Shown here one piece after another: positions 3,270 to 39,111 of a stretch of DNA of 41,340 nucleotides. Made by a program: the position numbers and the translations under genes. Position 1 is the first letter of the stretch. Every line of letters starts with the position of its first letter. Under the pieces are notes generated by a model. It was not told the DNA's origin, made no database searches, and saw only the letters and a list, made by a program, of their open reading frames with translations. The DNA is from a virus (lineage: Duplodnaviria; Heunggongvirae; Uroviricota; Caudoviricetes), in IMG/VR virus record IMGVR_UViG_2778261227_000005, positions 1-41,340 of that record; one strand, given 5' to 3'.

Positions 3270-6200
3270 ATGAAATGGATAAAAGCACTTAACCTTCAGC
3301 AATGGGCAGATTCTATTCCTGCAAAAGTTATTTTTCCAGCACTAATCGCTGATCTTATACGTGCAACGGCTAACAGTATTACTGAAATTAGATTTCCTAA
3401 TGGTGATAAGGGACAGGTTAGAGGTTATGACGGTGTACTTAAAGCCGAGGGGGTGGCCCCCTATGTTCCTGATGGCGACTCATTCTGGGAATTTGGTGTT
3501 AATGAAAAATTGCTTGATAAAGCTAACTTTGATTACGAAAAAAGAACACGCGAAGTTGCTCCAGAGATACGTCTAAAGACTACTTTTGTTTTCGCTTCAT
3601 TAAGAACATGGGATAATCCTAAGGTAAAGCTTGAAGACTGGCTACAAGAGAAACGCAATAGTGGTAAGTGGAAAGACATCAAATTAATTGATGGTTCTAT
3701 GCTTGAAGATTGGCTCGGTGTTTGCCCTGCTGTAGCTGCTTACTACGCTCGCTACCATCTTGAGCTAATGCCACAGGTTGGTGTTAGAAGCATTAAGGAG
3801 TTTTGGGATGAATTTTCCACTAAATTTAATCCCCCTTTAACTGAAGCAGTCTTGCTGGCGGGGAGAGAAAAGCAAAAAGAGCGTTTTCTGAATGAGTTAC
3901 GAGAAAATGGTCGAAAAATATCTTTAGCTGCAGATTCTCCGGATGAGGTTATTGCTTTTGCGATTGCAGCTATCAGAACCACTGAAGCGGAACTTCGACA
4001 TTCCTTTCAAAGTCGAGCACTAATTATTGATACGGATGATGCTGCAAGACAGCTTTCTGGAAAAAGAGGAATGATCTTCTTACCACGTGATCGAGCAAGA
4101 GCTTTAGCCGGTTTATTACAGCAAGCATCTATCACAGTAGTAAGTGCCGGAGCCGATGAAACACGAACTGATCACGAACTTCTGATCCGCCCAGATAGTA
4201 TATCTTTAGGTAAGGCTCTTGAATCTATGGGGTTTGATTCAGATAAAAGTTATCAAATAGCGCGGCAGTGTGGCCGAAGTTTGTCTGTTTTGGCTCGCCA
4301 GATATCAAGTAGCACGGCTGAATCACCTGAATGGAAAGACAGCCCTGAGTTGCTCCCTGCTTTATTAGCTGGTGCATGGAGTACATGTTCAGAGAAAGAT
4401 AAGTTAATTCTCAAGCAACTAGCTGGCTATACAGACTATTCTCAAGTTGAAAATCCATTAAGGCTATTAACAAAGCGCCGCGATTCTCCAATTGACCGAG
4501 TAGATGATATTTGGTCATTGCGTTCGTCGGTAGATGCTTTTGTACATTTAGGCTATTTGCTGGGTGAAGAACACCTGGAGCGTTTTGAGAAGGCCGTAAG
4601 AGAGGTTTTTTCCTATATTCCTGAACCACCAAAGGCCGAAGATCTGTTTGTACCTGACAATGGTATTAAAACGTCTTATAGCTCGTGGTTACGTAATGGA
4701 ATGACAACAGTTTTGCTACATATGGCAATATTACATGAACAGGCCGAATTCCGGGTTACTGGTATGACACCCCAAGATTTTGTTAACAAAATAGTTCAGA
4801 GTATTCCGGGACTTGCTAACGACCATCGACTATTTGTTAGTTTGCGAGATCAACTTCCGCTGCTGGCAGAAGCTGCCCCTGGCCCTTTCCTTGATGCCCT
4901 TGAGCAATTGCTTAAGGGCAATGGGGAAATGATTGCTCCAATATTCAATGAAGATAAAGGGCTGTTAACTCCTCGAAGTCATTATCATGGATTAAAATGG
5001 GCATTGGAAGCCTTGGCTTGGGAACAAACATATCTATTACGCGCTGCAATCTGTCTTGCAAAACTCGCTGTAATAGATCCCGGAGGAACTTACTCAGATC
5101 GCCCTCTTAATAGTTTAAGAACCATTTTTCTGGCATGGTCTCCTAATACATGGGCACCAGTAAAAGTTAGAAATGCAATTATAAAAAAAATTATCACTAT
5201 TGTTCCTAGTATTGGGTGGAGTTTGTTACAAAATCTCCTTCCTCGCTCCCATGATACCTCTGATCAAAACCAAAAAATGAAGTTCAGAGAGTCGGATAAA
5301 GATGTAGAAAAACTAACGTGGGGCGTTGTTTGGGAGGGGCAAATCTTTATTATCCAAGAAGCAATTAAACTTGCAGGTATACTCCCAACAAGATGGGAAA
5401 TCCTAATCTCTCATTTAAGCTCATTCCCTGAGAATGCAATAGATGAAACACTTTCTCATCTTGAACTTTGCCTTTCTCAACAAACTGAAGAGGATCAGTT
5501 CATCGTATGGGAGGCTTTGCGTCATGAGTATTCTCGCCATAAAAAATATTCAGATGCGAACTGGGCATTTAAATTTGAGTCTATGGAAAAAATAGCGAAA
5601 ATACTTGATAATTATAAACCAATTGACATGGTTAGAGCCAGTTTATGGATTTTCAATGATTGGGATTCTGATATTGAAGAGTCAATTGAAAATGCTGGCG
5701 GAATTTTTTCTTCTGTCGAAGAAATGCGAAGTGAAAAACTTAGGGAAATATACTTTACTTTAGGTTTGTCTGGGGTGAAAGACCTTTTTCAACAAGTTAA
5801 TAATGTTTTTATTGCAGCAAGGCATATATCAGCACTCTCGTTGGATGAAGAAAAATTAAATGATTTGTTTGTAATGCTTATTAACAACAAAAAAAATATT
5901 GATGAAGTTTGTGGGTTGTTAATGCAATATGGTGTTGAATGCTTTGGTGCTGAATGGCTTAATAAAATAAAAGTGTATTTTAAACAGTTTAAAATTACCC
6001 CTGATAGGGCTGGGAAAATCTTAGCATCGTTAAGAGACTCACAAGAGATATGGAGCATTATTGAAGGGTTTGAAGATAACATCAACGAAAAATATTGGTT
6101 GCAAAAACAACCCATTGCAATGATGGGTAAAACTTCGGATTTATTTGTTCTTATGGATAAATATATAGAAAGGGGCCGGGGTCTTGCTGCTATTATATCA

Positions 6201-7016
6201 GCAAATCAACGCCTTTCTGAGATTCCATCTACAACACTTTTATATCTTCTAGATATAGTCGTTAAAGAAATAAATAGCCAGGATATCCAATTTGATACAA
6301 TGCTATCGTACTATGTAAAAAAAGTTTTTGATGAACTCAAACAACGTAACGATGTTTCTGAAACAGATTTGGCATTTAAAGAAATGACCTACTTGCCTTG
6401 TTTTCCGGATAGCGATGAGCCACTTATCCTGCATCGTCTAATGATGAAAAAGCCAGAGGTTTTTATAGAAGCAATATGTATTGTATATCGTAGTGACGAA
6501 GATGAACAAACAGAACCATCGGAGTTGGAAGTTAAAAGAGCTACTTCTATATACAGATTACTTGAAAAATTACGAATACTACCAGGGCAGATAGACAATG
6601 AAATTGATCAAGATAAACTTGAAGATTGGTGTGAGAATGTACGCCATTTAGCAAAATTGCATCATCGCCAAGAAATCACTGATCATGTAATAGGAAAAAT
6701 TCTGGCACATGCCCCTAATAGCTCAGTAGATAATTCCTGGCCACATGAAGCAATTCGGCACATCATTGAAATATTATCTTCTGATGAGTTAGAGCAAGGT
6801 ATACAAATTGGTAGGTACAATAAAAGGGGGGTATTTGCTCGTATGCGTTACGAAGGTGGAAACCAAGAAAGGATATTAGCTGAGCAGTACCGAGAATGGG
6901 CAAATTCAATGCCCCACTGCGTCCGTACTTCTGCAATGCTATTTAGAATCGCTGACGAATGGGAATACTCAGCAAAAAACGCAGATATTCGAGCCGCAAA
7001 GGCTGATTTAAAATAG
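3270..7016 (+). CDS. Large hypothetical protein (1248 aa), no recognisable catalytic motif; candidate defence-island cargo
   Basis: Single 1248-codon ORF, strongly AT-rich, GGTGGAG RBS-like sequence upstream of ATG 3270. No Walker A (GxxxxGK[ST]) or helicase motif found on reading. Divergent from the 917-aa gene across a 467-bp AT-rich spacer. Confidence 0.8.
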   Translation: MKWIKALNLQQWADSIPAKVIFPALIADLIRATANSITEIRFPNGDKGQVRGYDGVLKAEGVAPYVPDGDSFWEFGVNEKLLDKANFDYEKRTREVAPEIRLKTTFVFASLRTWDNPKVKLEDWLQEKRNSGKWKDIKLIDGSMLEDWLGVCPAVAAYYARYHLELMPQVGVRSIKEFWDEFSTKFNPPLTEAVLLAGREKQKERFLNELRENGRKISLAADSPDEVIAFAIAAIRTTEAELRHSFQSRALIIDTDDAARQLSGKRGMIFLPRDRARALAGLLQQASITVVSAGADETRTDHELLIRPDSISLGKALESMGFDSDKSYQIARQCGRSLSVLARQISSSTAESPEWKDSPELLPALLAGAWSTCSEKDKLILKQLAGYTDYSQVENPLRLLTKRRDSPIDRVDDIWSLRSSVDAFVHLGYLLGEEHLERFEKAVREVFSYIPEPPKAEDLFVPDNGIKTSYSSWLRNGMTTVLLHMAILHEQAEFRVTGMTPQDFVNKIVQSIPGLANDHRLFVSLRDQLPLLAEAAPGPFLDALEQLLKGNGEMIAPIFNEDKGLLTPRSHYHGLKWALEALAWEQTYLLRAAICLAKLAVIDPGGTYSDRPLNSLRTIFLAWSPNTWAPVKVRNAIIKKIITIVPSIGWSLLQNLLPRSHDTSDQNQKMKFRESDKDVEKLTWGVVWEGQIFIIQEAIKLAGILPTRWEILISHLSSFPENAIDETLSHLELCLSQQTEEDQFIVWEALRHEYSRHKKYSDANWAFKFESMEKIAKILDNYKPIDMVRASLWIFNDWDSDIEESIENAGGIFSSVEEMRSEKLREIYFTLGLSGVKDLFQQVNNVFIAARHISALSLDEEKLNDLFVMLINNKKNIDEVCGLLMQYGVECFGAEWLNKIKVYFKQFKITPDRAGKILASLRDSQEIWSIIEGFEDNINEKYWLQKQPIAMMGKTSDLFVLMDKYIERGRGLAAIISANQRLSEIPSTTLLYLLDIVVKEINSQDIQFDTMLSYYVKKVFDELKQRNDVSETDLAFKEMTYLPCFPDSDEPLILHRLMMKKPEVFIEAICIVYRSDEDEQTEPSELEVKRATSIYRLLEKLRILPGQIDNEIDQDKLEDWCENVRHLAKLHHRQEITDHVIGKILAHAPNSSVDNSWPHEAIRHIIEILSSDELEQGIQIGRYNKRGVFARMRYEGGNQERILAEQYREWANSMPHCVRTSAMLFRIADEWEYSAKNADIRAAKADLK

Positions 7017-7050
7017 AAAGATTCAAAACCAAAATTAGAATAAATCATAA

Positions 7051-7074
7051 AAACCCTGCTTAAGAGCAGGGTTT
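7051..7074. terminator. Perfect 10-bp stem / 4-nt loop hairpin downstream of the 1248-aa gene; probable intrinsic terminator
   Basis: aaaccctgct-taag-agcagggttt is an exact inverted repeat, 35 nt after the stop at 7016; the following T-tract is weak (aacttcttt). Confidence 0.5.
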
Positions 7075-7154
7075 AACTTCTTTCAGCGTCATTTAAAATT
7101 GCAGACCTTCAGGTTAATCTACCCAAAAACAGAACGGGTTTTAGCTACGACATG

Positions 7155-15606: not shown

Positions 15607-16038
15607 GTGGAATTACGCAAAATGAATAACAAAGATGTTAACGCTGTGCTTTCCCGGTTAATGTCACTATTCCAAGCAGAGAATGATAGTGAGTTGGCAA
15701 GAGCGCTTAACGTCAACAGGCAGACACTTGCAAGTTGGAGGAAGCGTGATTCTGTGCCTTATGCAATTTGCATAAACATCGCAGAAGAAAAGGGGGTTTC
15801 TTTAGATTGGTTGCTAACAGGTAGAAAACAAGGTTTATCAAAAGAAGTAGACGTAACTCCGACGCAAGTGCAGTTTAGCCAAGCTGACCTTACTATGCTT
15901 GAGCTTTTAAAGCAGCTAGACCCCGAGGTTCGTAACGATCTTCTGCGAGGCGCTGCGGAAAAACAGCGAGTGATCGAGATGGAAAAACAACTGAAGGAAT
16001 TATCCGCAACGATTGAGCGGTTAAAAAATGTGGGTTAA
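15607..16038 (+). CDS. CI-like phage repressor (HTH, phage_CI_repr-type N-terminal domain)
   Basis: LARALNVNRQTLASWRKRDSVPYAICINIAEEKGVSLDWLLTG is typical of the phage CI-repressor HTH; divergent from ner. Frame opens with GTG at 15607; ATG at 15622 is an alternative start; no clear RBS, so possibly leaderless. Confidence 0.75.
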   Translation: MELRKMNNKDVNAVLSRLMSLFQAENDSELARALNVNRQTLASWRKRDSVPYAICINIAEEKGVSLDWLLTGRKQGLSKEVDVTPTQVQFSQADLTMLELLKQLDPEVRNDLLRGAAEKQRVIEMEKQLKELSATIERLKNVG

Positions 16039-16160: not shown

Positions 16161-17054
16161 ATGAGTGGTGATGTGAGAAATTATCGTATTGAGTTTCATC
16201 AGCTATCGTTTAAGGCCACAGATCAGCTGGCAAATCTCGGAGATTCTTTTCAATCTGTAATTGATAAACAGAGCCCTTCCTCTTCAAACCATGAGGGTTT
16301 TACTAGAGAAATTTGGGGGTTGAAAAAACGCGCGGATGGTTCTTTTAGTGGAGAGTTGAGAAAATTTCGCAACTCGAACATTCCAGATAAAGGTGCACCA
16401 GGGAAACAGTCTACCCCTATTCCACTTGCCAAGGATGAAGGGATCATTGAGCGCAATTTCTTTGTATTCTATCCCCGAATCAATGTTATAGGTTGGCACT
16501 ATAATCATATGGCTTGTGGTATAAGCCGTTTTAGTGCATTTCTTTCAACTATCTTTGGTTCAAAGGTTAAGCCCGCACCTTTGCTGGAAAAAGATGCAAT
16601 CGCTAGGCTTATGAGAGGAGATGTCAAAATGAAAAAAATCCAGTTGACGATTCCTCGCCCCCGTAATCCTGAGTTTTACCCTGATACTGATTTCAGTCAA
16701 AAGACACTACAACTGCTTGGTGATGCAGGTGCCGATACAATGCAAATTGTAATGGGGATTAATACTCGCCGTGGCGATAGTGATGGTAGGCTTAAGCAGA
16801 ATATAAAATTTGCTATGCAAGAGTTAGTCGAGTTTGGGGCGAAAAAGGCTGTAATTGATGTGTTCGATGCTGATGGTGTTGTCCATCCTGTGGATTTGAT
16901 TGCCGAGCGTATTTCGTCCTATCAATCGGTGGTTACTGACGCTCGTTTCCCTCCAGCCGAAACCATGTACCGTCTAATCGATACTGCGTATGCTGAAAAC
17001 CGGGAGAGTATCAATGCATATATTGGAGAAGATGAACTCGGCCCTATTGCTTAG
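16161..17054 (+). CDS. Hypothetical soluble protein (297 aa); RexA-like by position and partner, not by demonstrated homology
   Basis: AT-rich ORF immediately downstream of the repressor on the same strand; overlaps the following 4-TM gene by 41 nt; no catalytic motif recognised. Confidence 0.75.
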   Translation: MSGDVRNYRIEFHQLSFKATDQLANLGDSFQSVIDKQSPSSSNHEGFTREIWGLKKRADGSFSGELRKFRNSNIPDKGAPGKQSTPIPLAKDEGIIERNFFVFYPRINVIGWHYNHMACGISRFSAFLSTIFGSKVKPAPLLEKDAIARLMRGDVKMKKIQLTIPRPRNPEFYPDTDFSQKTLQLLGDAGADTMQIVMGINTRRGDSDGRLKQNIKFAMQELVEFGAKKAVIDVFDADGVVHPVDLIAERISSYQSVVTDARFPPAETMYRLIDTAYAENRESINAYIGEDELGPIA

Positions 17055-17451
17055 TTTATTGATTGGATGTGGGATTGGTTTTCTCTACTGGTTCAAGTTG
17101 CCCCATATGCCAGTAGCCGCAATCCCAAACTTCATGACTACATTGTCCAGTGTCTTTGCAACGTTGTTAGGTTTTATTATTACAGCAATTGCACTACTTG
17201 CATCATTGCTTGATAAACCGTTACTTAAAAACATGCAAAAAACCGGACATTACAAGCGTCTGATGACCGATGCATTCTACACTTGCTTAGTTTTGCTAGT
17301 GTTGGTGTTGACATGTTTGATTGGGTTGATGCTGCAAAGTAAGCATCAAGAGATTGTAGCCGCTATCCTCATTGGGCTTGTTGTTATGTCTATGTTGTGT
17401 TTATTACAAACAGGTAGGCGATTATTCAATATAATCAAAGTGATATCATAA
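17014..17451 (+). CDS. Small 4-TM membrane protein (~146 aa); RexB-like by architecture
   Basis: Four hydrophobic segments (LLLSLLIGCGIGFLYWF; FATLLGFIITAIALLASLL; YTCLVLLVLVLTCLIGLML; IVAAILIGLVVMSMLCLL). Start chosen at ATG 17014 with GGGAGAG 5-7 nt upstream; the track ORF begins at 16990. Confidence 0.7.
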   Translation: MHILEKMNSALLLSLLIGCGIGFLYWFKLPHMPVAAIPNFMTTLSSVFATLLGFIITAIALLASLLDKPLLKNMQKTGHYKRLMTDAFYTCLVLLVLVLTCLIGLMLQSKHQEIVAAILIGLVVMSMLCLLQTGRRLFNIIKVIS

Positions 17452-17503
17452 CAATGCACCATCAGGTGCATTGTTATGCAAGACTACTTACCTCCTTCTG
17501 AGC

Positions 17504-18271
17504 CTACTCTAAATTACTTACAATAAGTTCGCGCCGTAGTGTTCCCTTTCCTGCAAGACTGTAGTTGACCTTCACACAGTGAATGTTCAGACCGTTAAAA
17601 ACCTGCCGCATTTCCGGGATATCGTTGACCGATATAATCATCTTTCCTCTGATGCAACGGGCCAGCTCTGCCAACCGCGAGTAGTTCCCTTCAGGAAAAT
17701 CCACACCATAGCCTTCCGTACCCAGGTACGGTGGGTCGCAGTAGAACAGCGTGTGCGGACGGTCATAACGCTCAATGCACTGTTGCCAGTCCATGTGTTC
17801 TATCACCGTTCTGGAAAGTCGCAGGTGTGCCGCTGAGAGCTCTTCCTCAATACGCAGCAGGTTGAAGCGTGGCGGGGATGTGGTGGAGGTGCCGAAACTA
17901 TGCTCTGCCACCTTGCCACCAAACGCCTGCTTCTGGAGGTAGTAGAACCGTGCTGCACGCTGGATATCCGTCAGGGTTTCCTCCGGGGTGATCTGCAGCC
18001 ATTTGTAGATCTGCCGGCTAACCAGCGCCCATTTGAACTGGCGGACAAATTCTTCTAGGTGATGCTTTACCACCCGATACAGATTTACCAGTTCACCGTT
18101 GATATCGTTAATGACTTCGATCTTACCTGGTGTCTTAAGAAAATAGAGCGCAGCTGCGCCGCAGAACGGCTCCACATAACATTCATGCGCTGGAAACAGC
18201 GGCAGAATGTGTTTTGCCAGGCGGCGTTTGCCCCCAATCCATGGAACGATGGGTAATGTCTGCATTTTCAT
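17504..18271 (-). CDS. dam: Dam-family N6-adenine DNA methyltransferase (D12 class), no cognate nuclease adjacent
   Basis: WIGGKRRL, motif I EPFCGAAALYF and motif IV DPPY in Dam-like order; 255 aa. Confidence 0.85.
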   Translation of the reverse strand: MKMQTLPIVPWIGGKRRLAKHILPLFPAHECYVEPFCGAAALYFLKTPGKIEVINDINGELVNLYRVVKHHLEEFVRQFKWALVSRQIYKWLQITPEETLTDIQRAARFYYLQKQAFGGKVAEHSFGTSTTSPPRFNLLRIEEELSAAHLRLSRTVIEHMDWQQCIERYDRPHTLFYCDPPYLGTEGYGVDFPEGNYSRLAELARCIRGKMIISVNDIPEMRQVFNGLNIHCVKVNYSLAGKGTLRRELIVSNLE

Positions 18272-18312
18272 AATCTGTAAGCCTTTTACAATTACTAAAA
18301 ATATGGCAGGCT

Positions 18313-18335
18313 AGTCTGGTCTCGCGAGACTGACT
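18313..18335. repeat. Imperfect palindrome AGTCTGGTCTCGCGAGACTGACT in the Dam / zinc-ribbon divergent region
   Basis: Core GTCTCGCGAGAC (18319-18330) is a perfect 12-bp palindrome; possible regulator site or hairpin. Confidence 0.3.
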
Positions 18336-18472
18336 GAACCTCGGTCGGCTCACAGCCACTTCTGTGGGACGATGGCCAGTCCGGCTTTCGGGTGCCGGGC
18401 TGGTCGTTCTTTCATGATGCGGCAGGAATGAAGTGATTTCTGTTAATGTGGTTTAGAGGATATCGGGGTGCT

Positions 18473-18967
18473 ATGGATACAAACGCTTTATTAACAGCTC
18501 TTGGCTATATCAGCAGTACTGCTCAGAAAATAATAAAAGAGCGTGATCAAATAAAACAGGCCGCTTTGACCAGTGAATTACAGAGTAAAATTATTGAAGC
18601 ACAGGGGCAGTTCTTTGAGGTAACGAGCAAGCTAGGAGAACAGCAAAAAACCATTACCAATCTGGAAGAGAAAATTCGCTCTCTGGAAGACCTTCTTAAC
18701 TTTCGCGGTAATTATAAACTGACGTTACTGAGTGAAGAAAAAGGCTTCTATGCTTATCGTTATACGGGAAACGATGAAACTGAACATTATATTTGCCAGA
18801 CTTGTTTTGATTCCAAAAACCTGAAAAGTATCCTGCGTATACGGAAAGACAGTTTTTGCATGTGTCCGGTTTGTGGTCAAAACAGTGCTGTATGGTTGAA
18901 AGGAGAGCCAAATCCAGTTCGTATCAGGTCTCGTAAGAGGGATGACTTCTATGATGGTTTTATCTAG
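18473..18967 (+). CDS. Coiled-coil protein with C-terminal zinc ribbon (~164 aa), unknown function
   Basis: AT-rich ORF; Cys cluster CQTCF ... CMCPVCG; predicted coiled coil in the N-terminal half. Start at ATG 18473 (track ORF begins at 18446). Confidence 0.6.
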   Translation: MDTNALLTALGYISSTAQKIIKERDQIKQAALTSELQSKIIEAQGQFFEVTSKLGEQQKTITNLEEKIRSLEDLLNFRGNYKLTLLSEEKGFYAYRYTGNDETEHYICQTCFDSKNLKSILRIRKDSFCMCPVCGQNSAVWLKGEPNPVRIRSRKRDDFYDGFI

Positions 18968-19042: not shown

Positions 19043-19468
19043 TTACTTTTCTGTAGATTTAATAACCTTACATAATTCCATTAAAACCAGCTCCTGATCG
19101 TATAATACGAACAATGCAGCAATTGCGGCATGTACAGCATCGGGCAGTATCCAGGGGTTCTTGCCTTCGGGACATATAACTTCCAGCAGTGCATTCGTCA
19201 GGCAAATGCGCTCTTCACTATATGATAGAGTTACCCGCTCAGTGTATTCTTCCAGTCGGATAATTGTACCTGCCCGTGGTTTCTGCCATGTGCTCAGATC
19301 ATCCCCACTCATACGGCGCTCATTCTCCACGTCAGCAGCATCGACAATGACGCTGTTTCCGGGTTCCTGTTTCACCATCTCTTCTATCCGCGCCAGTACG
19401 TAACTTTTACCGCTGCCCACAGGACCGGACACGGTGACAGTGATGACCGGATTCAGTGTCTGCGTCAT
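19043..19468 (-). CDS. Small P-loop protein (141 aa), unknown function
   Basis: Walker A VSGPVGSGKSY near the N-terminus; no other motif recognised; convergent with the zinc-ribbon gene. Confidence 0.6.
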   Translation of the reverse strand: MTQTLNPVITVTVSGPVGSGKSYVLARIEEMVKQEPGNSVIVDAADVENERRMSGDDLSTWQKPRAGTIIRLEEYTERVTLSYSEERICLTNALLEVICPEGKNPWILPDAVHAAIAALFVLYDQELVLMELCKVIKSTEK

Positions 19469-19598
19469 ATCGTATTCTCCTCTGTGAATAATTCATCGTT
19501 TATCCTGCACATCCCGTATCCCCGGCTCTCTTAACGCGCTTTAAAATCCTTTGCGCCCTGTATTTGTGATGCTGTCTCCACCAAACGAGGAGACACAC

Positions 19599-38707: not shown

Positions 38708-38763
38708 ACCTTCTTAAACGCCTTTAATATCGGCGCTTACTTCCCGGGGGCAATACTGCCTCC

Positions 38764-39111
38764 ATGAAAACGACCTCAGTATTCTGGCAACCGGCTCTGC
38801 AGGCTCCCGGCGAAATTGTCCGGGGGCTGGATGATATCCGGCAGTCCATCCAGATCATCCTGCGGACTCCCCGGGGCAGCGACCCGCATCGCCCGGAGTT
38901 CGGCAGTAATCTGCACCTTTATATCGACTGGCCTGTCGACCGGGCCATTCCGCATGTGGTTCGCGAATCCGTCGATGCCATCAGGCGCTGGGAACCCCGC
39001 TGCCAGCTTATGTCGGTTAAACCCGCCGTCGACGGCGAACATCTTACGCTCCGGGTGAGCTGGAAAGGCTCAGACGGACAACCCCGTACTCAGGAACTGC
39101 TATGGCGCTGA
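38764..39111 (+). CDS. Baseplate wedge protein (gpW / gp25-like)
   Basis: 115 aa; RGSDPHRPEFGSNLHLYIDWP matches the GPW_gp25 signature as I recall it. Confidence 0.7.
   Translation: MKTTSVFWQPALQAPGEIVRGLDDIRQSIQIILRTPRGSDPHRPEFGSNLHLYIDWPVDRAIPHVVRESVDAIRRWEPRCQLMSVKPAVDGEHLTLRVSWKGSDGQPRTQELLWR

What the first reader, a model, noticed from the sequence alone, without database searches (positions are those of the whole stretch)
17504..18472. Dam-type adenine methyltransferase with no cognate nuclease, plus palindrome in its divergent promoter region
A Dam-like methyltransferase (motifs EPFCGAAA, DPPY) sits alone in the accessory module with no adjacent restriction nuclease, which suggests anti-restriction self-protection or epigenetic regulation. 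The 200-bp region it shares with the zinc-ribbon gene carries the palindrome GTCTCGCGAGAC.
Basis: partly seen in the sequence, partly recalled or inferred. Interest (0 to 1): 0.35.

Follow-up and report, generated by a model that had tools for sequence, protein, structure and literature searches.

The report
Orphan phage methylase with RNA leader

Summary
A 255-aa D12/Dam-family adenine methylase lies at 17504-18271 (-), with EPFCGAAA and DPPY, and GTCTCGCGAGAC lies at 18319-18330. The window is a BcepMu-like transposable prophage of E. coli.

The enzyme is an orphan. No neighbour has a nuclease family, and no neighbouring protein family recurs in more than 19 of 80 related loci. It is not a Dam orthologue, because the GATC-contact residues are not conserved and it fails the Dam equivalog model.

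The palindrome is not an operator shared with the zinc-ribbon gene. The ~150 bp upstream of the methylase travel with the methylase across several phage types in Gamma- and Betaproteobacteria, and are better conserved than the coding sequence.

This block folds into covarying helices:
- a three-way junction (P0, P1, P2);
- a hairpin, P3, that stays a perfect palindrome while its sequence changes;
- a small hairpin, P4;
- a 9-nt segment (CUGUGAGCC) that pairs with the ribosome-binding region (GGCUUACAG) and covaries with it.

On the opposite strand there is a conserved TAnnnT hexamer. P1 folds better on that strand and is followed by a U-rich tract. Together these suggest a convergent ~100-nt antisense RNA.

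The element has no Rfam family. The direction of antisense control and the enzyme's specificity are unresolved.

The parts
17504..18271 (-). Orphan D12/Dam-family N6-adenine DNA methyltransferase, 255 aa
   Evidence: ORF and motifs EPFCGAAA and DPPY. PF02086 E=8e-30. TIGR00571 'dam' subfamily 116.5 bits against a cut-off of 114.85, but Dam equivalog NF008152 71.5 against 441. PADLOC MTase_II E=1e-112. Closest solved structures are DpnM and E. coli Dam, E~1e-17.
18269..18285 (-). Translation initiation region: start codon 18269-18271, segment c (GGCUUACAG) 18275-18283, Shine-Dalgarno AAGG 18282-18285
   Evidence: Read from the sequence. Segment c pairs with a' in the minimum-energy fold and covaries with it.
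18284..18301 (-). P4, a small hairpin just upstream of the Shine-Dalgarno sequence (UUUUUAGUAAUUGUAAAA)
   Evidence: A hairpin is present at this place in relatives with changed sequence: UUUUCG..CGAAAA, UUUUUCCAUGGAAAAA, GUUUUAAAAC. Seen by eye, not tested statistically.
18285..18317 (+). Candidate promoter of the antisense RNA: -35 TTTACA 18285-18290 and -10 CAGGCT 18307-18312 (or TAGTCT 18312-18317)
   Evidence: A TAnnnT hexamer lies at a fixed offset from the palindrome centre on this strand in 59 of 74 distinct relatives, against 16% in shuffles. The window's own clade has C at the first position. The scan tool instead calls TTTTCA 18265-70 / TACAAT 18287-92.
18313..18335 (.). P3 hairpin/palindrome: core GTCTCGCGAGAC 18319-18330 with imperfect outer arms AGTC..GACT
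   Evidence: Unique in the window. The position is conserved and the palindrome stays perfect while its sequence varies across relatives.
18347..18355 (-). a' (CUGUGAGCC): anti-TIR segment formed by the 3' arm of P2 plus 4 nt
   Evidence: Complementary to c. 89% of cells paired, 0 of 500 shuffles as high, 5 of 9 pairs compensatory, slid controls 24-40%. Permutation test over 20 sequence classes gave 0 of 20000.
18332..18417 (-). 5' domain: three-way junction of P0 (18336-18339 with 18406-18409), P1 (18374-18385 with 18394-18405) and P2 (18351-18355 with 18362-18366)
   Evidence: Covariance model R1 gives 73.8 bits, E=2e-16, and this is the only hit in the window. On the seed alignment 84% of cells pair against 68.5% shuffled, and 18 of 22 pairs show compensatory changes.
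18319..18418 (+). Putative ~100-nt cis-antisense RNA: P3', single-stranded GAACCUCGGUCGG, P2', P1', then a U-rich tail UUUCAUGAU at 18410-18418
   Evidence: Inferred. In P0-P2, A.C mismatches on the sense strand (which are G.U on this strand) number 119 against 42 G.U. P1 is on average 3.9 kcal/mol more stable on this strand, in 50 of 64 sequences. The 10 nt after P0' are 54% T against a 25% background. The fold has z=-4.0. The equivalent strand of a Burkholderia phage scores 44.4 bits on Rfam ctRNA_pGA1, whose gathering score is 45.
18440..18455 (-). TAAACCACATTAACAG motif upstream of the leader: probable promoter or activator site for the sense transcript
   Evidence: The motif TAAASnnnnTTAAYAG occurs 3 times in the window against 0.48 expected, each time upstream of a transcription unit. 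It is present upstream of the leader in other BcepMu-like relatives. Its function is inferred.
17450..17475 (.). Inverted repeat AACAATGCACC-ATCA-GGTGCATTGTT between the convergent methylase gene and ORF 16990-17451
   Evidence: Read from the sequence. Not called as a terminator by the scan. It probably marks the 3' end of both transcription units.

Best explanation
The gene encodes an orphan phage Dam-family N6-adenine DNA methyltransferase. It is carried as a mobile cassette by a BcepMu-like prophage. Its likely job is to methylate phage DNA during lytic growth so that progeny escape restriction; this role is inferred. Its specificity is unknown and is probably not GATC.

The cassette brings its own post-transcriptional control. 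The mRNA has a ~150-nt leader. In that leader an upstream 9-nt segment a' (CUGUGAGCC) pairs with the ribosome-binding region c (GGCUUACAG) and hides it. The complementarity and its covariation are shown; the effect on translation is inferred. A nearby copy of the c sequence, a (CACAG), can pair with a' instead to form hairpin P2. This gives a three-part switch.

A convergent promoter inside the leader probably drives a ~100-nt antisense RNA made of P3', P2' and P1' plus a U-rich tail. This RNA is complementary to the first ~100 nt of the leader, including a and a'. It is inferred from the sequence and has not been observed.

My best guess is that leader and antisense RNA together keep the enzyme silent in the lysogen and confine its synthesis to late lytic growth, when a phage-specific promoter upstream fires. 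That is the way type I toxin mRNAs and Mu mom are controlled. I cannot decide whether the antisense RNA represses (by RNase III cleavage or by refolding the leader) or activates (by freeing the ribosome-binding site from a').
For: Enzyme: PF02086, the TIGR00571 subfamily model, and similarity to DpnM and Dam structures.

Orphan status: no nuclease family in any neighbour and no conserved neighbour across 80 loci.

Cassette: similarity to other phages covers the gene plus the leader only. The same pair occurs in BcepMu-like, lambda-like Burkholderia and P2-like telomere phages. Model R1 finds the 5' domain upstream of the methylase, or of com plus the methylase, in 79 of 86 sequences searched. 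In the reverse query, 198 of 210 element matches in IMG/VR have the methylase directly downstream, and 4 more have com first.

Structure: 84% of cells paired against 68.5% shuffled, 18 of 22 pairs compensatory.

RBS sequestration: a':c shows 89% paired, 0 of 500 shuffles as high, and G.U pairs valid only on the sense strand. The permutation test gave 0 of 20000. The pairing follows the first gene even when that gene is com. The window leader's minimum-energy fold has the ribosome-binding region paired, -49.9 against -37.4 kcal/mol when it is forced free.

Antisense RNA: wobble asymmetry 119:42; P1 3.9 kcal/mol better on the antisense strand; TAnnnT at a fixed offset in 59 of 74; T-rich tail; ctRNA_pGA1 near-hit on the antisense strand.

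Silence in lysogens: the D12 prophage methylase M.EcoMIV of ST131 had no assignable motif and no transcript by RT-PCR (PMC4659465). The analogous com-linked methylases of Mu-like prophages were also silent (PMC3299994).
Against: No transcript data were available, so neither the sense start site nor the antisense RNA has been observed.

The simple scan tool does not call the proposed antisense terminator in the window or in three relatives. The U tract is short, typically 3-4 U, and is separated from P1' by the P0' strand.

In the window's own clade the -10-like hexamer is CAGGCT rather than TAnnnT. The scan tool prefers a different antisense promoter.

Strand asymmetry is clear only for P1; for P2, P3 and P4 it is small.

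The perfect palindromy of P3, including its central 4 nt, exceeds what an RNA hairpin needs and is not explained by this model.

RNA-seq of a phi1026b lysogen reported reads over the homologous gene (PMC2920897), so silence in lysogens may not be general.

The identity of the window enzyme with M.EcoMIV was not verified.
Confidence: 0.6

Rival explanations
1. One reading: the palindrome is a DNA operator for a dimeric regulator, in a divergent promoter region shared by the methylase and the zinc-ribbon gene.
For: P3 is a perfect even-length DNA palindrome in most relatives. Its central 4 nt are self-complementary, which an RNA loop does not need. It lies at about +1 of the proposed antisense promoter, a typical operator position.
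Against: The palindrome's sequence differs between close relatives while the only co-travelling proteins are the methylase and sometimes Com. The zinc-ribbon gene is not a conserved neighbour. The region is conserved with the methylase only. Flanking helices covary as RNA.
Confidence: 0.1
2. Purely cis-acting leader with no functional antisense RNA. All helices act in the sense mRNA as a translational switch, flipped by co-transcriptional folding, by a protein (Com-like or a phage late protein), or by processing.
For: The a':RBS pairing is sense-specific and strongly supported. The a / a' / c layout is that of a classical switch. Relatives with com show that protein activators are used in this system. 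The scan tool calls no antisense terminator.
Against: The 119:42 excess of A.C over G.U in P0-P2 and the 3.9 kcal/mol antisense advantage of P1 are hard to explain if only the sense strand folds. TAnnnT is conserved with free internal positions on the antisense strand. The window has no Com-like ORF.
Confidence: 0.2
3. The leader is a metabolite-sensing riboswitch (for example SAM or SAH) that tunes methylase synthesis.
For: It has a three-way junction with nearly invariant unpaired nucleotides (AAC between P1 and P2; CCAAGGC after P2) and an expression platform that sequesters the ribosome-binding site. It controls a SAM-dependent enzyme.
Against: No Rfam riboswitch match at E up to 5. The strand asymmetry points to the opposite strand for the junction helices. 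The invariant positions are few, and some are explained by the antisense -10 element or by alternative pairings.
Confidence: 0.05
4. The methylase is the modification half of a defence or R-M-like system formed with its variable neighbours (the zinc-ribbon coiled-coil protein at 18446-18967, the P-loop protein at 19043-19468, or ORFs 16161-17451).
For: The neighbours have no known function. They give weak P-loop hits and a weak LmuB-like hit, E~3e-4. Phage accessory regions often hold defence genes.
Against: None has a nuclease domain. None co-occurs with the methylase across relatives. In ST131-type prophages the same methylase and leader sit next to quite different genes.
Confidence: 0.05

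Closest known systems
Phage Mu com-mom operon, and the com-linked methylases of Mu-like prophages (Hin1523, Nma1821, Hia5; Drozdz et al. 2012, PMC3299994)
   Same: It is a DNA-modification gene of a transposable phage, with no nuclease partner, harmful or silent in the lysogen. It is controlled at translation by an RNA structure that hides the start region. Thirteen of the related loci have a Mu Com-like zinc-finger ORF between the leader and the methylase.
   Different: The window has no com gene. The structure here is a long-range helix between an upstream segment and the ribosome-binding site, plus a three-way junction and a probable antisense RNA, not a local stem-loop opened by Com. In com-bearing relatives the leader sequesters the start of com itself. 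The enzyme is much closer to Dam than Hia5 is reported to be. Direct comparison with Hia5 was not possible.
Type I toxin-antitoxin style control (hok/sok, tisB/istR-1, symE/SymR)
   Same: The 5' UTR folds so that an upstream segment sequesters the ribosome-binding site. A small cis-encoded antisense RNA is complementary to the 5' UTR and not to the coding region. It controls a product that may harm the host.
   Different: The controlled gene is an enzyme of 255 aa, not a small toxic peptide. No processing step is known. The weak symR hits (E=0.12-0.58) reflect architecture only.
Plasmid countertranscript RNAs (ctRNA_pGA1 RF00236; pT181 or pIP501-type attenuation)
   Same: A ~80-100-nt antisense RNA with a first hairpin, then a long GC-rich hairpin followed after a few nt by a U tract, complementary to the leader of the regulated gene. 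The leader has mutually exclusive pairings: a:a' against a':c.
   Different: The score is just below Rfam's gathering threshold and only in a Burkholderia relative (44.4 against 45). The window gives no hit. The context is a phage methylase rather than plasmid replication. The output is sequestration of the ribosome-binding site rather than a transcription terminator.
E. coli Dam, T4 Dam and DpnM (GATC-specific D12 methylases)
   Same: Same fold family and alpha-class motif order (motif I, target recognition region, DPPY). It passes the TIGR00571 subfamily model.
   Different: About 25-28% identity. In the HMMER alignment to 2G1P, Dam K9, N120, L122 and R124 align with P, G, K and A. It fails the Dam equivalog model. 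GATC is depleted in the prophage, observed/expected 0.56.
M.EcoMIV of E. coli ST131 EC958 (Forde et al. 2015, PMC4659465)
   Same: A prophage-borne orphan type II D12 methylase with no recognition site known for any close homologue. No methylation motif could be assigned and no transcript was seen by RT-PCR in the lysogen. The 90%-identity cluster of the window protein includes ST131 sequences.
   Different: Identity with the window protein was not verified. That paper does not describe any leader or antisense RNA.

Membership tests
D12 class (Dam family) N6-adenine DNA methyltransferases | Full-length match to PF02086 / TIGR00571 above the curated cut-off | tested here: met
   PF02086 104.8 bits against a cut-off of 22. 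TIGR00571 116.5 against 114.85, a bare pass.
D12 class (Dam family) N6-adenine DNA methyltransferases | SAM-binding motif I (FxGxG-like) N-terminal to catalytic motif IV (DPPY), with the target recognition region between them (alpha order) | tested here: met
   PFCGAAA at residues ~35-41 and DPPY at ~179-182, aligned to the same motifs of DpnM and Dam.
Dam orthologues (GATC-specific) | Score above the Dam equivalog model cut-off | tested here: not met
   NF008152 71.5 bits against a cut-off of 441.
Dam orthologues (GATC-specific) | Conservation of the residues that contact GATC in E. coli Dam (K9, N120, L122, R124, P134, Y138; from the 2G1P literature, recalled) | tested here: not met
   In the HMMER alignment to 2G1P these align with P, G, K, A, S/P and F. 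The alignment in this loop is of modest confidence.
Orphan (solitary) phage methyltransferases | No restriction nuclease adjacent, and none conserved next to the gene in relatives | tested here: met
   No nuclease family in the four neighbours. The largest neighbour cluster is in 19 of 80 loci and is a backbone gene.
Mu com-mom type translational control | Com zinc-finger ORF immediately upstream of the modification gene | tested here: not met
   A profile built from 9 Com ORFs of relatives gives no hit in six-frame ORFs of the window, best E=1.9. Com is present in 13 related loci.
Mu com-mom type translational control | RNA structure that occludes the start region of the modification gene | tested here: met
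   The a':c helix covers the Shine-Dalgarno sequence and the 9 nt before the AUG. It has covariation support and is in the minimum-energy fold. The effect on translation was not testable.
Non-specific adenine methylases of Mu-like prophages (Hia5 / Hin1523 / Nma1821) | Sequence membership in that subfamily | not tested
The paper reports only remote similarity of Hia5 to Dam-type enzymes, whereas the window protein hits Dam at E~1e-16. That suggests a different subfamily.
cis-encoded antisense RNA (countertranscript / type I antitoxin-like) | Promoter on the strand opposite to the regulated leader | tested here: inconclusive
   TAnnnT at a fixed offset in 59 of 74 relatives against 16% shuffled, but CAGGCT in the window clade. 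The scan tool calls a different antisense promoter.
cis-encoded antisense RNA (countertranscript / type I antitoxin-like) | Intrinsic terminator on that strand | tested here: inconclusive
   P1 is more stable on that strand and is followed by a T-rich tract. It is not called by the scan tool.
cis-encoded antisense RNA (countertranscript / type I antitoxin-like) | A detectable small transcript | not testable with these tools
   No transcriptome data are accessible. Literature searches found no description.
Rfam ctRNA_pGA1 (RF00236) | Score at or above the gathering threshold | tested here: not met
   No hit in the window. 44.4 against 45 bits in a Burkholderia phage relative.

The most novel reading that the evidence does not exclude
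The leader and antisense pair may be a previously undescribed class of self-contained genetic switch, in which RNA and DNA levels are coupled. The convergent sense and antisense promoters, the RBS-sequestering helix and the always-perfect P3 palindrome would form an all-or-none circuit. The antisense RNA would act as an anti-antisense activator: it carries a near-copy of the ribosome-binding region and is perfectly complementary to a'. Alternatively, the palindrome and the -10 adenine of the antisense promoter would be methylated by the enzyme itself, giving epigenetic feedback. Either way a possibly promiscuous adenine methylase would be expressed only once the cell is committed to lysis.
Probability: 0.15. 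Interest if true: 0.75.

Novelty: new variant of a known kind. Interest (0 to 1): 0.55.

Why it matters
Orphan phage methylases are common, but little is known about how they are kept silent in lysogens. This enzyme's family has no known recognition site. It sits in about 10% of complete E. coli genomes, 558 of 5426, and in prophages of many Gamma- and Betaproteobacteria.

A conserved, uncatalogued RNA control module would explain why such enzymes leave no trace in methylomes of lysogens (PMC4659465). It would give a direct handle for turning the enzyme on, by mutating a' or removing the leader, so that its specificity can be read. It would also add a widespread phage regulatory RNA to the catalogues.

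If the enzyme turns out to have relaxed specificity like Hia5, it would be of practical interest as well.

Tried and rejected
- Rfam, whole window at gathering thresholds and the region at E up to 5: nothing relevant.
- Looking for the palindrome elsewhere in the window as a regulator site: unique.
- Com-like ORF in the window: none. The zinc-ribbon protein is not Com-like by Pfam or by my profile.
- A 21-codon ORF in the leader (AUG at 18414-18416): not conserved in relatives, so rejected as a leader peptide.
- Conserved partner gene or nuclease: none.
- GATC-based regulation: no GATC between 18120 and 18544.
- Locating M.EcoMIV in EC958 by guessing coordinates: two regions fetched, neither was the prophage. 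Abandoned.
- Phage B3 right end fetched to compare its com-methylase pair: the pair is not in that stretch.
- Literature searches for an antisense or small RNA linked to this methylase, including the B. cenocepacia dRNA-seq paper: nothing.
- A first test of a':RBS pairing using automatic start-codon calls was noisy because several starts were miscalled. It was replaced by a window-based permutation test and by an alignment count.
- Strand comparison of P2, P3 and P4 by folding energy: differences too small to interpret.
Full report
**What is in the sequence**

The minus-strand ORF 17504-18271 encodes a 255-aa protein with VEPFCGAAALYF and FYCDPPYLG. It matches Pfam PF02086 (D12 class N6-adenine DNA methyltransferase) end to end, E=8e-30. 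It matches PADLOC's type II MTase model at E=1e-112. Its nearest solved structures are DpnM and E. coli Dam, E~1e-17.

GTCTCGCGAGAC is at 18319-18330 and is unique in the window. Taken alone it is not remarkable: the window has 8 perfect 12-bp palindromes against ~10 expected.

The window is a BcepMu-like transposable prophage:
- a CI-type repressor at 15607-16038;
- a transposase and MuB-like early operon on the minus strand;
- a holin and SLT lysis cassette from 19551;
- head and tail genes to the right.

It is 99.9% identical over the region to E. coli strain JB2.

**The enzyme**

It belongs to the Dam family but is not a Dam orthologue. It just passes the TIGR00571 subfamily model (116.5 against 114.85 bits) and fails the Dam equivalog model (71.5 against 441). 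In the HMMER alignment to 2G1P, the residues that read GATC in E. coli Dam (K9, N120, L122, R124; recalled from the structure paper) align with P, G, K and A. GATC is the most depleted 4-bp palindrome in the window, 106 observed against 188 expected, and none lies in the upstream region. I therefore regard GATC specificity as unlikely. This is an inference.

The literature supports two points.
- The prophage-borne D12 orphan M.EcoMIV of E. coli ST131 has no known site. No homologue above 65% identity has a known site either. It gave no methylation motif and no RT-PCR signal in the lysogen (PMC4659465). The 90%-identity cluster of the window protein contains ST131 sequences, but I could not verify identity.
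- Mu-like prophages are known to carry Dam-related methylases in place of mom. These are preceded by com, are silent in lysogens, and have almost no sequence specificity (PMC3299994).

**Orphan status**

None of the four neighbours has a nuclease or other informative family in Pfam, PADLOC, PHROGs or NCBIfam. These neighbours are 16161-17054, 16990-17451, 18446-18967 and 19043-19468. Among 80 related genomic loci, no neighbouring protein cluster is present in more than 19, and those that recur are phage backbone genes. In ST131-type prophages the same gene sits directly beside the holin, with quite different cargo on its other side.

**The upstream region belongs to the methylase**

Megablast to phage records aligns window 17547-18468 (PhiKM, 91%) or 17583-18415 (KP12 and Phi06_2974B, 82%). 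That is the gene plus its upstream region, but not the zinc-ribbon gene. In the alignment the upstream block is better conserved than the coding sequence.

I fetched 80 loci from species-representative genomes (578 relatives were found) and read the upstream regions. They show a shared architecture from Enterobacterales to Burkholderiales, Neisseriales and Nitrosomonadales.

The same gene-plus-gap arrangement occurs in a lambda-like Burkholderia phage, after the lysis genes. It also occurs in the P2-like telomere phage phiHAP-1, after tail gene D. It therefore behaves as a mobile cassette.

**Structure of the 5' domain**

On the methylase-coding strand the element reads as follows.
- An A-rich tract.
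- P0, closing a three-way junction with a long GC-rich hairpin P1 and a short hairpin P2 (CACAG/CUGUG).
- A nearly invariant CCAAGGC.
- P3, the palindrome.
- AAGCCUA.
- A small hairpin P4.
- The Shine-Dalgarno sequence.
- The AUG.

On a 17-sequence seed, 84% of cells pair against 68.5% in shuffles (0 of 500). Of 22 pairs, 18 show compensatory changes. Slid controls give 25-36%.

A covariance model of P0-P2 finds a single hit in the window, 18332-18417 on the minus strand, 73.8 bits. It finds one hit upstream of the methylase in 79 of 86 sequences searched. In 13 loci a Mu Com-like zinc-finger ORF lies between the element and the methylase. The element therefore leads the operon whatever its first gene.

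The association is specific in the other direction too. Two sequence patterns of the element gave 210 matches in IMG/VR. Of these:
- 198 have the methylase directly downstream;
- 4 have com first;
- 3 have a decayed methylase;
- 4 are cut by the end of the locus.

**Sequestration of the ribosome-binding site**

The 3' arm of P2 plus four bases (a', CUGUGAGCC, 18347-18355) is complementary to GGCUUACAG (c, 18275-18283). Segment c overlaps the Shine-Dalgarno sequence and ends 3 nt before the AUG.

The complementarity is kept through radical changes: CUGCAAGUC/GGCUUGCAG, CACGGUUUC/GAGAUCGUG-AUG, CACGGCAUC/GAUGCCGAU-AUG, CCGUUGGCC/AGCCAAUGG. It applies to the com start where com comes first.

I ran a permutation test over 20 distinct a' classes using RNAduplex energies against each sequence's own or another's initiation region. 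None of 20000 permutations was as good as the real pairing. On a 26-sequence alignment the helix is 89% paired, with 0 of 500 shuffles as high. Five of nine pairs show compensatory changes, and slid controls give 24-40%. It contains many G.U pairs that would be C.A on the other strand. This helix therefore forms in the sense mRNA.

For the window leader the minimum-energy structure contains it, at -49.9 kcal/mol. Forcing the initiation region free with P2 formed gives -37.4. Because the 5' arm of P2 (a, CACAG) resembles c, a' can pair with either. This is the layout of a switch.

**Evidence for an antisense RNA**

- In P0-P2, non-Watson-Crick cells are mostly A.C or C.A on the sense strand (119). 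These would be G.U on the opposite strand. G.U cells number 42 and other mismatches 50.
- P1 folds on average 3.9 kcal/mol better on the opposite strand, in 50 of 64 sequences.
- On that strand a TAnnnT hexamer sits 12-15 nt from the palindrome centre in 59 of 74 distinct elements, against 16% in shuffles. Examples are TAGGCT, TAGAAT, TAAACT, TAGCCT, TACGCT and TATGAT. A T-rich -35-like hexamer lies 16-17 nt upstream.
- The 10 nt after P0' on that strand are 54% T against a 25% background.
- The opposite strand of the element in a Burkholderia phage scores 44.4 bits on Rfam's countertranscript family ctRNA_pGA1, whose gathering score is 45. The match is hairpin, long hairpin, short spacer, U tract.

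Together these point to a convergent ~100-nt antisense RNA. In the window it would run from about 18319 to about 18418 on the plus strand. That stretch folds with z=-4.0.

There are weaknesses.
- The window's clade has CAGGCT (18307-18312) or TAGTCT (18312-18317) rather than a clean TAnnnT.
- The scan tool prefers TTTTCA 18265 / TACAAT 18292 in the window, and an analogous promoter over the start codon in the Burkholderia phage.
- The scan tool calls no terminator here.
- I had no transcript data.

**The sense promoter**

A motif TAAASnnnnTTAAYAG lies upstream of the leader, at 18440-18455 on the minus strand. It recurs upstream of the P-loop gene (19528-19543, minus) and of the ORF at 38764 (38715-38730, plus). 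That is 3 matches against 0.48 expected. Other BcepMu-like relatives have it in the same place.

I read it as the phage's own promoter or activator site, into which the cassette is plugged. In other phage types the cassette simply follows late genes on the same strand.

**The palindrome**

P3 is a perfect even-length palindrome in most lineages, always at the same place, with very different sequences. Examples are GTTCTCGAGAAC, CCTACCGGTAGG, CCGTAGCTACGG, CTTTCGTGCACGAAAG and CCTGGTACCAGG.

An RNA hairpin explains the arms but not the self-complementary centre. A protein operator explains the symmetry but not the sequence drift without a co-varying binding protein. This remains unexplained. 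Possibilities are loop-loop dimerisation, a DNA-level role at the start of the antisense transcript, or template-switch repair of a hairpin.

**Mechanism and confidence**

| Status | Claim |
|---|---|
| Shown | Family of the enzyme |
| Shown | Absence of a conserved partner |
| Shown | Cassette behaviour |
| Shown | Covarying helices |
| Shown | Complementarity between a' and the ribosome-binding region |
| Inferred | This helix represses translation (about 0.8) |
| Inferred | An antisense RNA exists (about 0.55) |
| Inferred | The module keeps the enzyme off in lysogens and allows a late burst (about 0.5) |

The direction of antisense action is not decided. Repression would fit most cis-antisense systems and the need for silence. 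Activation would fit the fact that the antisense RNA is perfectly complementary to a' and carries a near-copy of the ribosome-binding region, as in DsrA-rpoS type anti-antisense control.

**Novelty**

The methylase itself is ordinary. The control module has no Rfam family and is absent from RefSeq annotation. I found no description in the searchable literature. It works like known systems (Mu com-mom, type I toxin leaders, plasmid countertranscripts) but is a member of none of them.

Noticed in passing
window 18440-18455 (-), 19528-19543 (-), 38715-38730 (+): The motif TAAASnnnnTTAAYAG occurs three times (0.48 expected), each about 40-60 nt upstream of a transcription unit: the methylase leader, the P-loop gene at 19043-19468, and the ORF at 38764. 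The copy at 19528 lies between divergent genes and is nearly dyad-symmetric (TTAA-N6-TTAA). It is probably the phage's middle or late promoter, or its activator site.
   Followed up: partly
whole window: GATC is strongly depleted, 106 observed against 188 expected from trinucleotide frequencies (ratio 0.56). This is the lowest ratio of the sixteen 4-bp palindromes. The prophage seems to avoid Dam/MutH or GATC-directed restriction sites.
   Followed up: no
window 16161-17054 (+) and 16990-17451 (+): Two ORFs whose longest readings overlap: 297 aa (phrog_7651) and a 153-aa multi-pass membrane protein (phrog_8552). They lie just downstream of the repressor and have no Pfam, NCBIfam or PADLOC family. 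They look like lysogen-expressed cargo, possibly superinfection exclusion or defence.
   Followed up: partly
window 18446-18967 (+) and 19043-19468 (-): A coiled-coil protein with a C-terminal CxxC...CxCxxC zinc ribbon (phrog_1244; RefSeq starts it at 18473), and a 141-aa P-loop protein (phrog_3787; named 'ABC transporter ATPase' by PGAP). They are variable cargo between the methylase and the holin. In ST131-type relatives they are absent, and the variable cargo there is a 401-aa protein and an NA37 nucleoid-associated protein on the other side of the methylase (L300).
   Followed up: partly
L208, L246, L256 (IMG/VR Burkholderia-type loci), about 54 nt after the element: In these loci the leader is followed by a Com-like protein with a ~20-aa N-terminal extension (MANSQRASTPHLAADALDIRCGQCHRKLASGRYIELSIKCPRCGAINHL...), and the methylase lies further downstream. 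L283 carries the same DNA but has an in-frame stop in the extension. The same leader therefore drives either the methylase directly or a com-methylase operon.
   Followed up: partly
L001 (phage PhiKM, PQ738613) 5962-6816 and 6917-7132: The deposited annotation gives the methylase 284 aa and places a 71-aa 'hypothetical protein' over the leader region. In view of the covarying RNA structure and the conserved start at MK(E/M)Q, both look like over-calls.
   Followed up: no
window 17450-17475: A perfect 11-bp inverted repeat with a 4-nt loop lies between the convergent 153-aa ORF and the methylase gene. It has no T run on either side, so it may be a bidirectional 3'-end structure rather than a canonical terminator.
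   Followed up: no
L149, L175, L178 (IMG/VR): These loci have an intact leader followed by a decayed methylase gene, with frameshifts soon after MKMQTFPIAPW. The leader can outlive the gene, or these are recent inactivations.
   Followed up: no
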